From assembly GCF_013315695.1 (NCBI RefSeq), contig NZ_CP054353.1: a stretch of DNA of 64,000 bases; one strand, written 5' to 3'. Made by a program: the position numbers. This document shows, piece after piece, positions 3,001 to 6,000 of this stretch. Positions within the stretch are counted from its first letter, which is position 1; each line of letters begins with the position of its first letter. This DNA is from Escherichia coli (GTDB taxonomy: Bacteria > Pseudomonadota > Gammaproteobacteria > Enterobacterales > Enterobacteriaceae).

Positions 3001-6000
3001 AGACGAAGATCAGCACTCCCAACGCGAAATAGTTTAGAAACATATCTGCCTCGGATTCACGTTTATCAGTGTTGTTTTTTGGCTGGCAGCCAGAAGGGAG
3101 TCAGGCTGATATTTTGACAATAATCCGGGTTCGCGATTCTCGCCATAACACCAAAGAATAATTTTAAGAGGTGATGAGTTGCTTAGTTACATAACGATTT
3201 TATGACGAAGGCATAACATGCTGCAGATCACATCAGGTGAACGCTGTAAGAAAATATCTTGTGATTCAGATCACAAAAACTCAACAAACTAACAAAACAA
3301 AAATGTGACATTACTCACATTTAAATGCCATTTTTAGCGAAAATCGCCGCCTTGTTGCTTTTTTACACAAGAGTTTTGTGATGCACATCACGTCAATTAC
3401 CTCTCTACCCCCTATATTTATGTGATTCATATCACACAAAAAGCCGTCGACTGGACAGTTAACCGATTCAGTGCCAGATTTCGCAGTATCTACAAGGTCC
3501 GGCTACCTCTGCCGCCACATTAACAAAAAACCTCGGGCTTCCAGCCTGCGCGACAGCAAACATAAGAAGGGGTGTTTTTATGTCATCCGATATTAAGATC
3601 AAAGTGCAAAGCTTTGGTCGTTTCCTCAGCAACATGGTGATGCCAAATATCGGCGCGTTTATCGCGTGGGGTATCATCACCGCGTTATTTATTCCAACAG
3701 GGTGGTTACCGAACGAAACGCTGGCGAAGCTGGTCGGGCCGATGATCACTTATCTCCTGCCGCTGCTGATCGGTTATACCGGTGGTAAGCTGGTAGGCGG
3801 CGAACGTGGCGGCGTAGTCGGTGCCATTACCACCATGGGCGTTATCGTCGGCGCAGACATGCCGATGTTCCTCGGTTCTATGATTGCAGGTCCGCTGGGC
3901 GGCTGGTGCATTAAGCACTTCGACCGCTGGGTAGACGGTAAGATCAAATCCGGTTTTGAGATGCTGGTGAATAACTTCTCCGCTGGCATCATCGGGATGA
4001 TCCTCGCTATTCTGGCGTTCCTCGGCATTGGTCCAATTGTTGAAGCCCTGTCCAAAATGCTGGCTGCGGGCGTTAACTTCATGGTTGTCCATGACATGCT
4101 GCCGCTGGCGTCTATCTTTGTTGAACCGGCGAAAATCCTGTTCCTCAACAACGCCATTAACCACGGTATCTTCTCGCCGCTGGGTATTCAGCAGTCCCAT
4201 GAACTGGGTAAATCCATCTTCTTCCTGATTGAAGCTAACCCAGGTCCAGGTATGGGCGTGCTGCTGGCGTACATGTTCTTTGGTCGTGGTAGCGCTAAAC
4301 AGTCTGCGGGCGGTGCGGCAATCATCCACTTCCTGGGGGGTATCCACGAAATCTACTTCCCGTATGTGCTGATGAATCCGCGTCTGATTCTAGCCGTTAT
4401 CCTCGGCGGTATGACTGGCGTGTTCACGCTGACTATCCTGGGCGGTGGTCTGGTTTCTCCGGCATCTCCGGGTTCTATCCTTGCTGTACTGGCAATGACA
4501 CCAAAAGGTGCTTATTTCGCTAACATCGCGGGTGTATGTGCGGCGATGGCTGTCTCCTTCGTTGTCTCTGCCATTCTGCTGAAAACCAGCAAAGTGAAAG
4601 AAGAAGATGATATTGAAGCAGCAACTCGTCGTATGCAGGACATGAAAGCTGAGTCTAAAGGTGCGTCTCCGCTGTCTGCGGGCGATGTGACTAACGACCT
4701 GAGCCACGTACGTAAAATCATCGTTGCCTGTGATGCCGGTATGGGTTCCAGTGCGATGGGCGCAGGTGTGCTGCGTAAGAAAATTCAGGATGCAGGTCTG
4801 TCGCAGATTTCGGTCACTAACAGCGCGATCAACAACCTGCCACCAGATGTGGACCTGGTCATCACTCACCGTGACCTGACCGAACGCGCTATGCGCCAGG
4901 TTCCGCAGGCACAGCATATTTCGCTGACCAACTTCCTCGACAGCGGCCTGTACACCAGCCTGACCGAACGCCTGGTTGCTGCCCAGCGCCATACTGAAAA
5001 CGAAGTGAAAGTGAAAGACAGTCTGAAAGACAGCTTTGACGATTCCAGTGCTAACCTGTTCAAACTAGGCGCGGAGAACATCTTCCTCGGTCGCAAAGCG
5101 GCCACCAAAGAAGAAGCGATTCGTTTTGCTGGCGAGCAGCTGGTGAAAGGCGGTTACGTTGAGCCAGAATACGTTCAGGCGATGCTGGATCGTGAAAAAC
5201 TGACCCCGACTTATCTGGGTGAGTCTATCGCGGTGCCACACGGTACGGTTGAAGCGAAAGATCGCGTACTGAAAACGGGCGTGGTGTTCTGCCAGTACCC
5301 GGAAGGCGTGCGCTTCGGTGAAGAAGAAGATGACATTGCCCGTCTGGTGATTGGTATTGCTGCCCGTAACAACGAGCACATTCAGGTTATCACCAGCCTG
5401 ACCAATGCGCTGGATGATGAGTCCGTCATCGAGCGTCTGGCACACACCACCAGCGTGGATGAAGTGCTGGAACTGCTGGCTGGTCGTAAGTAATACAATC
5501 CCTCCCTCTCCACATGGAGAGGGTTTGGGTGAGGGAAAAGCCTCACCCCAGCCCTCTCGGGTAAAAACATTGATGAAGGTTAATACTATGAAAGCATTAC
5601 ATTTTGGCGCAGGTAATATCGGTCGTGGCTTTATCGGTAAACTGCTGGCAGACGCGGGTATCCAACTGACGTTTGCCGATGTCAATCAGGTGGTACTTGA
5701 TGCCCTGAATGCCCGTCATAGCTATCAGGTTCATGTGGTTGGTGAAACCGAGCAGGTAGATACCGTTTCCGGCGTCAATGCTGTCAGCAGCATTGGTGAT
5801 GATGTCGTTGATCTGATTGCTCAGGTTGATTTAGTCACTACCGCCGTGGGCCCGGTTGTGCTGGAACGTATTGCCCCGGCAATCGCCAAAGGGCTGGTGA
5901 AACGTAAAGAACAAGGTAATGAATCCCCGCTGAACATCATCGCTTGTGAAAACATGGTCCGCGGCACCACACAGCTGAAAGGACATGTGATGAACGCCCT

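What the first reader, a model, noticed from the sequence alone, without database searches (positions are those of the whole stretch)
3260..3436. Cluster of four CRP-type sites upstream of mtlA
Seen in sequence: four TGTGA-N6-TCACA-type palindromes within about 180 bp (3260, 3304, 3377, 3421), three of them exact at both half-sites. This fits the strongly catabolite-controlled mtl promoter; the number and spacing of sites is unusual among CRP-dependent promoters and may allow graded or cooperative activation.
Basis: partly seen in the sequence, partly recalled or inferred. Interest (0 to 1): 0.2.

Follow-up and report, generated by a model that had tools for sequence, protein, structure and literature searches.

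The report
Known CRP site array of mtlA promoter
The four palindromes are real: they are four of the five long-known binding sites for the catabolite regulator CRP in front of the E. coli mannitol operon, and their odd 44-bp spacing was recently shown to be the docking platform for the mannitol repressor MtlR, so the finding is correct but already explained.

Summary
Observation confirmed. Exact TGTGA-N6-TCACA at 3260, 3304 and 3421, and a one-mismatch copy at 3377, are the only exact matches in 64 kb (3 found, 0.05 expected). They rank 1, 2, 3 and 5 of about 64,000 positions with a CRP weight matrix.

The window is the E. coli yibI–mtlA spacer. It has 15 substitutions and no indels against K-12, and none of the substitutions is in a half-site. 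Centre-to-centre spacing of 44/73/44 bp identifies the sites as published CRP2–CRP5 (−219.5, −175.5, −102.5, −58.5).

[quoted passage not shown] It also shows that MtlR, which has no DNA-binding domain, represses by bridging two CRP dimers spaced 43–46 bp apart. So the finding is already known.

My additions:
- The 44/73/44 architecture is exact in 47 of 79 other gammaproteobacterial species and within ±1–2 bp in 14 more. The 73-bp gap, unexplained in the literature, is as invariant as the 44-bp gaps.
- A conserved dyad, TGTA-N7-TACA (3353–3367), sits at a fixed register in that gap. It matches the HexR/YebK operator of zwf promoters. It is strong in many genera but degenerate in E. coli.

The parts
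3214..3235 (.). CRP1, weak distal CRP site (core 3217-3232 CATGCtgcagaTCACA; published centre -262.5)
   Evidence: Centred 43 bp upstream of CRP2, as published. PWM score 9.4 bits, rank 15, at background level. Present at 42-43 bp in only a subset of Enterobacteriaceae. The paper shows it is dispensable. An E. coli strain (GPEC1054) has unrelated sequence in its place.
3257..3278 (.). CRP2 (core 3260-3275 TGTGAttcagaTCACA; published centre -219.5); essential for activation; pairs with CRP3 for MtlR docking
   Evidence: Exact consensus. 13.5 bits. Half-sites invariant in 8 E. coli alleles and conserved across 46 species. Function from PMC13421365.
3283..3288 (+). Conserved AACAAA block in the CRP2-CRP3 spacer, 18 bp downstream of the CRP2 centre; role unknown
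   Evidence: Information content up to about 1.8 bits over 46 non-redundant Enterobacterales aligned without gaps. Absent in Aeromonas and Vibrio.
3301..3322 (.). CRP3 (core 3304-3319 TGTGAcattacTCACA; published centre -175.5)
   Evidence: Exact consensus. 20.4 bits, best hit in the window. Conserved across species. The paper reports that mutating it gives only a slight reduction.
3353..3367 (.). Conserved dyad TGTt-gcttttt-TACA (TGTA-N7-TACA type), candidate HexR/YebK operator; centre 3360 = 48.5 bp after the CRP3 centre, 24.5 bp before the CRP4 centre, about -127 from the TSS
   Evidence: 35 of 62 non-redundant loci have at most 1 mismatch of 8 at this exact register; none do at the control registers tested, offsets ±3 to ±12 bp. 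A PWM trained only on zwf-promoter HexR boxes puts its top hit for the 600-bp mtlA upstream region here in 33 of 72 loci. The window allele itself scores only 7.9 bits, rank 30 in the window. The block is invariant among 8 E. coli alleles.
3374..3395 (.). CRP4 (core 3377-3392 TGTGAtgcacaTCACG; published centre -102.5); essential; pairs with CRP5 for MtlR docking
   Evidence: One mismatch to the consensus. 15.0 bits, rank 3. The TCACG half-site is the same in K-12. Function.
3418..3439 (.). CRP5 (core 3421-3436 TGTGAttcataTCACA; published centre -58.5); promoter-proximal, essential, class-I-like
   Evidence: Exact consensus. 18.6 bits, rank 2. Function.
3452..3480 (+). Inferred core promoter: -35 TGGACA (3452-3457), 17-bp spacer, -10 CAGATT (3475-3480); TSS about 3487
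   Evidence: TSS placed by adding 58.5 to the CRP5 centre, using the published coordinates. The hexamers are my reading of the sequence (inference). The region is 100% identical to K-12 and moderately conserved across species. The consensus promoter scan does not list it, as expected for an activator-dependent promoter.
3459..3472 (-). Cra (FruR)-type operator ACTGAATCGGTTAA between -35 and -10
   Evidence: Exact match to RSTGAAWCSNTHHW (consensus recalled from Ramseier et al. 1995); 3 matches in the window against 0.66 expected. PMC5888115 reports Cra binding at the mtlA -10/TSS that overrides CRP.
3580..5493 (+). mtlA, mannitol PTS enzyme IICBA (regulated gene; its dephosphorylated IIB domain sequesters MtlR)
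   Evidence: ORF and translation; RefSeq annotation of the identical record.
5588..6736 (+). mtlD, mannitol-1-phosphate 5-dehydrogenase
   Evidence: Annotation of the identical record.
6736..7323 (+). mtlR, repressor without DNA-binding domain that docks on CRP pairs
   Evidence: Translation is 100% identical to K-12 MtlR, including R167 and L178, which the paper shows are needed for the CRP contact.

Best explanation
The four palindromes are CRP2, CRP3, CRP4 and CRP5 of the five-site cAMP-CRP array in the operator-promoter of the E. coli mannitol operon mtlADR.

Activation. When glucose is absent and cAMP is high, CRP dimers occupy CRP2-CRP5. CRP5 at -58.5 acts like a class I site toward RNA polymerase. 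The upstream dimers are also required: CRP2 and CRP4 are essential and CRP3 contributes. This makes it a class III promoter whose activity depends on a defined multi-CRP nucleoprotein architecture.

Repression. The 44-bp centre-to-centre spacing of CRP2-CRP3 and of CRP4-CRP5 sets the relative orientation of two adjacent CRP dimers. One dimer of MtlR, which has no DNA-binding domain, can then bridge them and block the CRP-RNA polymerase contact (anti-activation).

Induction. [quoted passage not shown] With glucose, dephospho-HPr competes MtlR off MtlA and repression is restored. Cra binds between -35 and -10 as an independent repressor.

Shown here:
- sequence identity of the sites, their statistics, and their match to the published coordinates;
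- identity of MtlR to the K-12 protein;
- deep conservation of the site cores and of the 44/73/44 spacing.

Taken from the literature: CRP binding, site requirements, MtlR docking and sequestration.

Inferred by me: the exact TSS and hexamer positions in window coordinates, and that the invariant 73-bp gap (about 7 helical turns) reflects a fixed three-dimensional scaffold.
For: - Exact or near-exact CRP consensus, far above chance. PWM ranks 1, 2, 3 and 5 in 64 kb; hits of at least 13.5 bits are 5 against 0.92 expected.
- The locus is yibI | mtlA-mtlD-mtlR.
- The spacer has 15 substitutions and no indels against K-12. None falls in the 50 half-site bases; five fall in the uncontacted N6 centres.
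- Among 8 E. coli alleles, 0 of 40 half-site positions vary, against 7 of 24 N6 positions and 14 of 135 other positions. There is no indel from CRP2 to the ATG.
- The spacing 43/44/73/44 equals the published CRP1-5 centres -262.5, -219.5, -175.5, -102.5 and -58.5.
- Published EMSA and chromosomal site mutants: MtlR supershifts only probes with two CRP sites 43-46 bp apart; CRP2, CRP4 and CRP5 are essential; CRP1 is dispensable.
- Genomic SELEX recovered the yibI/mtlA spacer as the second most abundant CRP-bound clone.
- Window MtlR is 100% identical to K-12 MtlR.
- Across 79 other species, 47 have exactly 44/73/44 with all four sites at or above 8 bits, and 14 more are within ±1-2 bp. Spacer sequence has diverged (mean 0.4-0.6 bits against 1.2 bits in the cores), and the CRP5-to-start-codon distance varies by many bp.
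- The array stays with mtlA in 36 loci that lack yibI/yibH upstream.
Against: - Nothing contradicts the identification.
- No binding experiment exists for this particular allele. Its N6 centres differ from K-12 at CRP1, CRP3, CRP4 and CRP5.
- The TSS and hexamers are placed by arithmetic from published numbers, because the paper's sequence figure and supplements are not held.
- -58.5 is 3 bp off the canonical class I position of -61.5.
- The published model does not explain why CRP2 at -219.5 is essential, nor why the 73-bp gap is invariant.
Confidence: 0.94

Rival explanations
1. The spacing serves CRP-only cooperative or graded activation (DNA bending or looping by phased CRP dimers). MtlR docking would be secondary or incidental.
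For: - CRP2, CRP4 and CRP5 are each indispensable for activation, and the authors themselves invoke helical-phase-dependent looping.
- The 73-bp gap, which MtlR does not use, is as invariant as the 44-bp gaps. So geometry matters beyond MtlR docking.
- 73 bp is about 6.95 helical turns, which puts CRP3 and CRP4 in phase.
Against: - MtlR binding was shown to depend sharply on 43-46 bp spacing and could be transplanted to malK by changing 34 bp to 44 bp.
- MtlR R167E and L178A lose repression in vivo.
- The two roles are not exclusive, so this is an incomplete explanation rather than a wrong one.
Confidence: 0.12
2. The array, or its distal part (CRP1/CRP2), mainly controls the divergent yibI-yibH genes rather than mtlA.
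For: CRP sites often lie in divergent spacers. Shimada et al. list the yibI/mtlA spacer with both genes downstream of the site. CRP1 and CRP2 are nearer to yibI.
Against: - 36 of 47 loci with the exact 44/73/44 array have no yibI/yibH upstream, yet keep the array at a nearly constant distance from mtlA.
- The chromosomal CRP2 mutant abolishes mtlD expression.
Confidence: 0.04
3. The palindromes are chance matches or the remnant of a repeat, with no regulatory role.
For: None beyond the low complexity of the A/T-rich spacer.
Against: - 3 exact matches against 0.05 expected, all within 177 bp.
- The cores are conserved while the flanks diverge over 46 species.
- The spacers share no similarity with each other, so this is not a tandem duplication.
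- There are published footprints and mutants.
Confidence: 0.01
4. The sites are used by another CRP/FNR-family protein rather than CRP.
For: Family members share the 5-N-5 palindrome format.
Against: - The half-sites are TGTGA/TCACA with N6 (CRP type), not TTGAT-N4-ATCAA (FNR type).
- A crp deletion abolishes mtlA expression, and purified CRP plus cAMP shifts the fragment.
Confidence: 0.01

Closest known systems
E. coli K-12 mtlADR operator-promoter with five cAMP-CRP sites (Ramseier & Saier 1995, Microbiology 141:1901; Lee et al. 2026, NAR, PMC13421365)
   Same: The same locus. The flanking genes are the same, all 50 half-site bases are identical, the spacing 43/44/73/44 is identical, the promoter and 5'UTR are identical, and MtlR is identical.
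   Different: This is an allelic variant: 15 substitutions in 536 bp, five of them in the N6 centres of CRP1, CRP3, CRP4 and CRP5. For example, CRP4 reads TGCACA here and TGAACG in K-12, which gives the consensus A before TCACG. Only 5 of 5404 E. coli genomes are at least 99% identical over the spacer.
Vibrio cholerae mtlA promoter with five verified CRP sites and MtlR repression (Zhou et al. 2013; PMC6597380; PMC5845740)
   Same: A multi-CRP array upstream of mtlA with 43-44 bp pairs. MtlR docks on CRP pairs. In my survey, Vibrio, Aeromonas and Agarivorans loci show 44-45/73/42-44.
   Different: It is additionally controlled by the antisense sRNA MtlS. [quoted passage not shown] Some Vibrio loci have extra sites at 51-bp steps.
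CytR-CRP anti-activation at deoP2, cdd and tsx
   Same: A repressor sits between or on two tandem DNA-bound CRP dimers and masks their activating regions. Repression depends on the activator being bound.
   Different: CytR has its own LacI-type DNA-binding domain and operator, and the CRP sites are about 53 bp apart. MtlR has no DNA contact and reads only the 43-46 bp geometry.
malEp-malKp divergent region with three to four CRP sites (Vidal-Ingigliardi & Raibaud 1991)
   Same: Several adjacent CRP sites form a higher-order activation complex.
   Different: The spacing is 34 bp and it needs MalT. MtlR does not bind it unless the spacing is re-engineered to 44 bp.
HexR (RpiR family; E. coli YebK) operators, TGTA-N7-TACA / TTGT-N7-8-ACAA
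   Same: The dyad at 3353-3367 has the same 4-N7-4 format and the same T-rich centre as the zwf boxes tTGTAATTTTCTTACa conserved in seven Enterobacterales. Mannitol utilisation is a predicted HexR regulon member in Vibrionales and Shewanellaceae.
   Different: In Enterobacterales, HexR is described as a local regulator of zwf only. The E. coli copy is degenerate (7.9 bits). It lies at about -127, embedded in an activator array, not over a promoter.

Membership tests
cAMP-CRP (CAP) binding site | 16-bp palindromic core TGTGA-N6-TCACA within a 22-bp site | tested here: met
   Three exact cores and one with a single mismatch. PWM scores 13.5-20.4 bits, ranks 1, 2, 3 and 5 of the window.
cAMP-CRP (CAP) binding site | Occurrence above chance, in a non-coding region upstream of a catabolic operon | tested here: met
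   0.05 exact matches expected against 3 observed. All lie in the 536-bp yibI-mtlA spacer.
cAMP-CRP (CAP) binding site | Purifying selection on the contacted half-sites but not on the N6 centre | tested here: met
   0 of 40 half-site positions vary among 8 E. coli alleles, against 7 of 24 N6 positions. Half-site information content is about 1.6-2 bits over 46 species, with low N6 content.
cAMP-CRP (CAP) binding site | Physical binding of cAMP-CRP | not testable with these tools
   Published for the K-12 allele, which has identical half-sites: EMSA and footprints and genomic SELEX.
E. coli mtl five-site operator (Ramseier & Saier array) | Orthologous position between yibI and mtlA, with centre spacing 43/44/73/44 | tested here: met
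   Gapless alignment to K-12. Centres 3224.5, 3267.5, 3311.5, 3384.5 and 3428.5, compared.
MtlR-docking CRP pair | Two CRP sites 43-46 bp apart, centre to centre | tested here: met
   CRP1-2 is 43 bp, CRP2-3 is 44 bp and CRP4-5 is 44 bp. CRP3-4 is 73 bp and is not a docking pair.
MtlR-docking CRP pair | Cognate mtlR in the operon, with the CRP-contact residues R167 and L178 | tested here: met
   MtlR at 6736-7323 is 100% identical to K-12 MtlR. The residues are named. mtlR is present downstream in 77 of 79 surveyed loci that reach far enough.
MtlR-docking CRP pair | MtlR supershift of the two-CRP complex, and loss of repression when the spacing is changed | not testable with these tools
   Published for K-12 and S. 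enterica.
Class I/III CRP-dependent sigma-70 promoter | Proximal CRP site near -61.5 relative to a mapped TSS, with a weak -35 | tested here: inconclusive
   The TSS is not mappable here. Using the published -58.5, the TSS falls at about 3487, with TGGACA-17-CAGATT upstream. The generic promoter scan finds nothing there.
HexR/YebK operator (for the dyad 3353-3367) | 15-bp palindrome TGTA-N7-TACA resembling the boxes in the zwf-hexR spacer | tested here: inconclusive
   In the window there is 1 mismatch of 8, but only 7.9 bits, rank 30. In other genera the score reaches 19.5 bits, and the top hit is at the same register in 33 of 72 loci.
HexR/YebK operator (for the dyad 3353-3367) | Binding by HexR, released by KDPG | not testable with these tools
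   YebK binds only its own promoter in published work; other targets are stated to be unknown. No held paper links YebK or HexR to mtlA in E. coli.
Cra (FruR) operator | Match to RSTGAAWCSNTHHW overlapping the core promoter | tested here: met
   Exact match at 3459-3472 on the minus strand; 3 in the window against 0.66 expected. ChIP-exo literature places Cra at the mtlA -10/TSS. The consensus was recalled from memory.

The most novel reading that the evidence does not exclude
The mtl operator is a rigid, deeply conserved nucleoprotein scaffold with a so-far undescribed sixth element. The CRP3-CRP4 gap is held at exactly 73 bp (about 7 helical turns) from Escherichia to Aeromonas and Vibrio. 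At a fixed register inside it sits a HexR/YebK-type operator, TGTA-N7-TACA. If HexR binds there, the mannitol operon of Enterobacterales would be wired to the Entner-Doudoroff signal KDPG in addition to cAMP, MtlR/HPr/EII(Mtl) and Cra. HexR would then not be a purely local zwf regulator in this order. In E. coli itself the box is degenerate and may be a decaying remnant.
Probability: 0.35. Interest if true: 0.4.

Novelty: already known. Interest (0 to 1): 0.15.

Why it matters
As given, the finding re-discovers a textbook-level regulatory region. The five CRP sites were footprinted in 1995, and the meaning of the 44-bp spacing was solved in 2026. Its value is as a positive control: the first-stage reader can recognise real operator architecture from raw sequence.

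The residual interest lies in two points the literature leaves open. Lee et al. state that they cannot explain why CRP sites up to -219.5 are indispensable.

- The cross-species invariance of the 73-bp gap shown here supports a fixed helical-phase architecture, and it can be tested directly by inserting half turns against full turns.
- The conserved HexR-like dyad offers a concrete candidate for an additional input. It could explain part of the constraint and would extend the enterobacterial HexR regulon.

Tried and rejected
- Rfam scan of 2900-3700 at E up to 1: no RNA family, so no known leader or sRNA element.
- Generic sigma-70 and terminator scan of the spacer: only chance-level hits, none at the published promoter.
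- Supplementary files of PMC13421365, wanted for probe sequences to pin the TSS, are not held. Leyn et al. 2011 (PMC3195618) is not held.
- For the dyad 3353-3367 I considered and rejected, from recalled consensus sequences:
  - CRP with a 5-bp centre (lacks the G of TGTGA; low CRP PWM score);
  - Fis (only the right half fits);
  - LexA (CTGT-N8-ACAG, one base too short);
  - TyrR (TGTAAA-N6-TTTACA, three bases longer);
  - DeoR/GlpR (TGT-N10-ACA);
  - CytR (GTTGCATT matches 7 of 8 in E. coli only and is not conserved);
  - LysR-type T-N11-A boxes (wrong register);
  - a -35/-10 pair (spacing of 7 bp is impossible).
- A divergent promoter using TATTTT (3256-3251, minus strand) or a plus-strand promoter ATCACA-17-GAAAAT (3227-3255): each matches only 8 of 12 and has no supporting data, so I left them as a note.
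- The pattern TGTA-N7-TACA with up to 1 mismatch is at chance frequency in the window (13 against 16.6 expected). The window copy alone proves nothing; the evidence is positional conservation.
- Literature searches for a described palindrome or operator in the E. coli mtl region found only Bacillus papers.
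Full report
1. THE OBSERVATION

The sequence at 3260-3436 contains four sites:
- TGTGAttcagaTCACA (3260-3275)
- TGTGAcattacTCACA (3304-3319)
- TGTGAtgcacaTCACG (3377-3392)
- TGTGAttcataTCACA (3421-3436)

The exact 10-base pattern occurs three times in the whole 64-kb window, all here, against 0.05 expected from dinucleotide-preserving shuffles. Allowing one mismatch adds the 3377 site and one unrelated hit at 38282 inside a coding region (5 found, 1.78 expected).

I built a symmetrised 22-bp CRP weight matrix from 20 classic, non-mtl CRP sites (lac, gal, ara, mal, deo, tna, etc.).
- The four sites score 13.5, 20.4, 15.0 and 18.6 bits and rank 5th, 1st, 3rd and 2nd of about 64,000 positions.
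- First-order Markov simulations give 0.92 hits of at least 13.5 bits per 64 kb, against 5 observed.

2. WHAT THE LOCUS IS

The 536-bp spacer 3044-3579 is found in 5404 of 5426 complete E. coli genomes and is 100% identical to isolate AF3 (NZ_OZ547117.1). In that record the window coordinates coincide with selA, yibF, yibH and yibI on the minus strand, and mtlA (3580-5493), mtlD (5588-6736) and mtlR (6736-7323) on the plus strand.

Against K-12 MG1655 the spacer aligns without a single gap and with 15 substitutions.
- None falls in the 50 half-site bases of the five published sites.
- Five fall in the uncontacted N6 centres.
- The last 136 bp (promoter plus 5'UTR) are identical.

Window MtlR is identical to K-12 MtlR.

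3. MATCH TO THE PUBLISHED FOOTPRINTS

Ramseier & Saier (1995, cited in PMC5320558) showed five cAMP-CRP sites in the mtl control region. Lee et al. (NAR 2026, PMC13421365) give their centres as -262.5, -219.5, -175.5, -102.5 and -58.5, which is a spacing of 43, 44, 73 and 44 bp.

The four sites here are centred at 3267.5, 3311.5, 3384.5 and 3428.5, a spacing of 44, 73 and 44 bp. They are therefore CRP2-CRP5.
- CRP1 is predicted at 3224.5. The sequence there is CATGCtgcagaTCACA: one good half-site, 9.4 bits, rank 15, at background level.
- The TSS falls at about 3487, with TGGACA (3452-3457), a 17-bp spacer and CAGATT (3475-3480) upstream. The hexamer assignment is my inference.

An exact match to the Cra consensus RSTGAAWCSNTHHW (recalled from memory) lies on the minus strand at 3459-3472, between the two hexamers. 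This agrees with ChIP-exo evidence that Cra binds at the mtlA -10/TSS and overrides CRP (PMC5888115). Genomic SELEX recovered the yibI/mtlA spacer as the second most abundant CRP-bound fragment of the genome (PMC3105977).

4. HOW IT WORKS (from the literature, checked here for applicability)

- CRP is essential for mtl transcription.
- Chromosomal replacement of CRP2, CRP4 or CRP5 abolishes expression and growth on mannitol. CRP3 has a small effect and CRP1 none.
[quoted passage not shown] It supershifts only DNA carrying two CRP dimers 43-46 bp apart, with an optimum at 44-45 bp.
- It does not bind the 73-bp CRP3-4 pair or the 34-bp malK pair unless these are re-spaced to 44 bp.
- MtlR R167E and L178A lose binding and repression.

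All the sequence determinants of this mechanism are present in the window: the cores, the spacings, MtlR with R167 and L178, and mtlA. The paper states that mtl is unique among 331 CRP-regulated units. However, the demonstrated function of the 44-bp spacing is repressor docking rather than graded activation.

5. COMPARATIVE ANALYSIS DONE HERE

A scan of one genome per species with MtlA residues 1-251 returned 80 loci from Enterobacterales, Aeromonadales, Vibrionales, Pasteurellales and others. For each locus I searched for the best-scoring quadruple of CRP sites, with all three spacings left free (38-50, 66-80 and 38-50 bp).
- 47 of 79 usable loci, plus the window, give exactly 44/73/44 with every site at or above 8 bits.
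- 14 more give variants within ±1-2 bp: 45/73/44 in Aeromonas, 45/73/43 in Vibrio and Agarivorans, and 44/72/44 and others.

The spacers themselves have diverged: mean information content is 0.4-0.6 bits, against about 1.2 bits over the 16-bp cores and 1.6-2 bits at the half-site positions. The distance from CRP5 to the start codon varies by many bp. The constancy of the spacing is therefore selected, not inherited by default.

36 of the 47 loci lack yibI/yibH upstream, so the array belongs to mtlA. CRP1 is detectable in only some Enterobacteriaceae, consistent with its dispensability.

Within E. coli, among eight alleles sampled across the identity range:
- 0 of 40 half-site positions vary;
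- 7 of 24 N6-centre positions vary;
- 14 of 135 other array positions vary;
- 1 of 136 promoter/5'UTR positions varies;
- there is no indel between CRP2 and the ATG.

6. WHAT THE LITERATURE DOES NOT EXPLAIN

The paper explains the 43-46 bp distances, but not why the 73-bp gap should be fixed or why CRP2 at -219.5 is essential. It offers looping or anti-silencing as possibilities. 73 bp is 6.95 turns at 10.5 bp per turn, so CRP3 and CRP4 bend DNA in phase. 44 bp is 4.19 turns, a twist of about 70 degrees. The invariance I find supports a defined three-dimensional CRP scaffold.

The footprint also reveals conserved blocks outside the CRP cores:
- AAAATA at 3251-3256;
- AACAAA at 3283-3288, 18 bp from the CRP2 centre, in Enterobacterales only;
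- a dyad TGTA-N7-TACA at 3353-3367 (E. coli: TGTTgctttttTACA), 24.5 bp before the CRP4 centre.

At that exact register, 35 of 62 non-redundant loci have at most 1 mismatch of 8. None do at the control registers tested, offsets ±3 to ±12 bp.

7. THE DYAD LOOKS LIKE A HexR OPERATOR

Pseudomonas HexR binds TTGT-N7-8-ACAA, and its paralogue RccR binds TGTAGTAAAACTACA (PMC5489143). Providencia (L038) carries exactly that 15-mer at the mtl dyad position.

The K-12 zwf-yebK (hexR) spacer has two boxes, TGTAATTTTCTTACG and TGTACTGCTTTTACG. These are the only matches with at most 1 mismatch in 8 kb. The same boxes are conserved upstream of zwf in Klebsiella, Mangrovibacter, Serratia, Pectobacterium and Cronobacter, and more weakly in Pantoea.

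A matrix trained only on these 13 zwf boxes places its best hit for the 600-bp mtlA upstream region exactly on the dyad in 33 of 72 loci. About 0.5% would be expected for a pre-specified position. Scores reach 19.5 bits, against a training range of 13.6-24.8 bits.

Published comparative genomics says HexR regulons of Vibrionales and Shewanellaceae include mannitol utilisation, but that HexR in Enterobacteriales is a local regulator of zwf (PMC5343134, PMC11014249). E. coli YebK is known to bind only its own promoter, reversibly with KDPG, and its other targets are stated to be unknown (PMC4488073). I found no held paper linking YebK or HexR to mtlA in E. coli.

Caveats:
- In this window the box is degenerate: 7.9 bits, rank 30 of the window, and 13.7 bits in E. 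albertii and another E. coli.
- The pattern is at chance frequency in the window.
- Erwiniaceae and Pluralibacter lack the dyad yet keep the 73-bp gap, so the dyad cannot be the only reason for that constraint.

8. VERDICT

The finding is real, correctly interpreted in its essentials, and already known. The sites are CRP2-CRP5 of the mtlADR operator, whose spacing is the MtlR docking geometry. Interest in the finding itself is low.

The most novel reading not excluded is that the array is a phase-locked scaffold with an embedded HexR-type operator. I rate that at about 0.35 for a functional site in at least many Enterobacterales, and lower for E. coli itself.

Noticed in passing
window 3353-3367 (and the same register in L003-L082): A conserved dyad, TGTA-N7-TACA, lies between CRP3 and CRP4 and matches the HexR/YebK boxes of zwf promoters. 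It is strong (18-19.5 bits) in Enterobacter, Cedecea, Leclercia and others. It is degenerate in E. coli and absent in Pantoea, Erwinia, Mixta and Pluralibacter. It is not mentioned in the 2026 mtl paper.
   Followed up: yes
window 3250-3256 and 3283-3288: Two further conserved non-CRP blocks flank CRP2 in Enterobacterales: (T/A)AAAAT(A) just upstream, and AACAAA 18 bp downstream of the CRP2 centre. The latter is at the distance where the RNA polymerase alpha-CTD sits next to CRP at class I promoters. Their role is unknown.
   Followed up: partly
window 3309-3314, 3382-3387, 3426-3431 (N6 centres of CRP3, CRP4 and CRP5): Among 8 E. coli alleles the uncontacted N6 centres are the most polymorphic positions of the array: 7 of 24 vary, against 14 of 135 elsewhere (Fisher p = 0.02). 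All 40 half-site bases are invariant. This could mean natural tuning of CRP affinity, or simply the only unconstrained positions.
   Followed up: partly
window 3444-3579: The core promoter and the 93-nt 5'UTR of mtlA are nearly invariant across the sampled E. coli alleles (1 variable position of 136) and differ at only a handful of positions, all upstream of about 3486, in E. albertii. They are more conserved than the CRP array itself. No Rfam family matches.
   Followed up: partly
L086 (E. coli GPEC1054) against window about 3150-3243: In this strain everything upstream of about 3243 is replaced by unrelated, internally repetitive sequence (GATGCCAAA... units). CRP1 is therefore missing from its usual place while CRP2-5 are intact. 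This is a natural counterpart of the dispensable-CRP1 mutant.
   Followed up: no
window 5494-5587 against K-12 L002 3196-3424: The mtlA-mtlD spacer is 94 bp here but 229 bp in K-12. K-12 presumably carries additional REP-type elements there.
   Followed up: no
window 8872-15025: An IS1A copy, a truncated SadB/YajI lipoprotein gene and a 5-kb YadA-like adhesin gene lie between yibL and lldP. They are absent from this position in K-12.
   Followed up: no
window 22971-22999: Immediately upstream of gpmM (ATG at 23033) there is an exact Cra-consensus match (22971-22984, minus strand). It abuts TGTAGTAAAATTACG (22985-22999), which is nearly the RccR/HexR 15-mer. This is the same Cra plus HexR-like pairing as at mtlA.
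   Followed up: no
window 8276-8297 and 38279-38300: These are the other high CRP-matrix hits. ATTTGTAACGTTCTTAACATTA lies downstream of yibL (13.0 bits, and also 12.2 bits with the HexR matrix). TTTTGTGAGAGGTTTCAGACTT lies inside a waa glycosyltransferase gene (14.8 bits) and is probably chance.
   Followed up: no
L051 (Actinobacillus), L063 (Cricetibacter), L077 (Gilliamella): Pasteurellaceae and Orbaceae mtlA promoters have a different, compact layout. Two have three very strong CRP sites (20-24 bits) spaced 40 and 44 bp, close to the gene; the third has a single 44-bp pair. None has the 73-bp gap.
   Followed up: no
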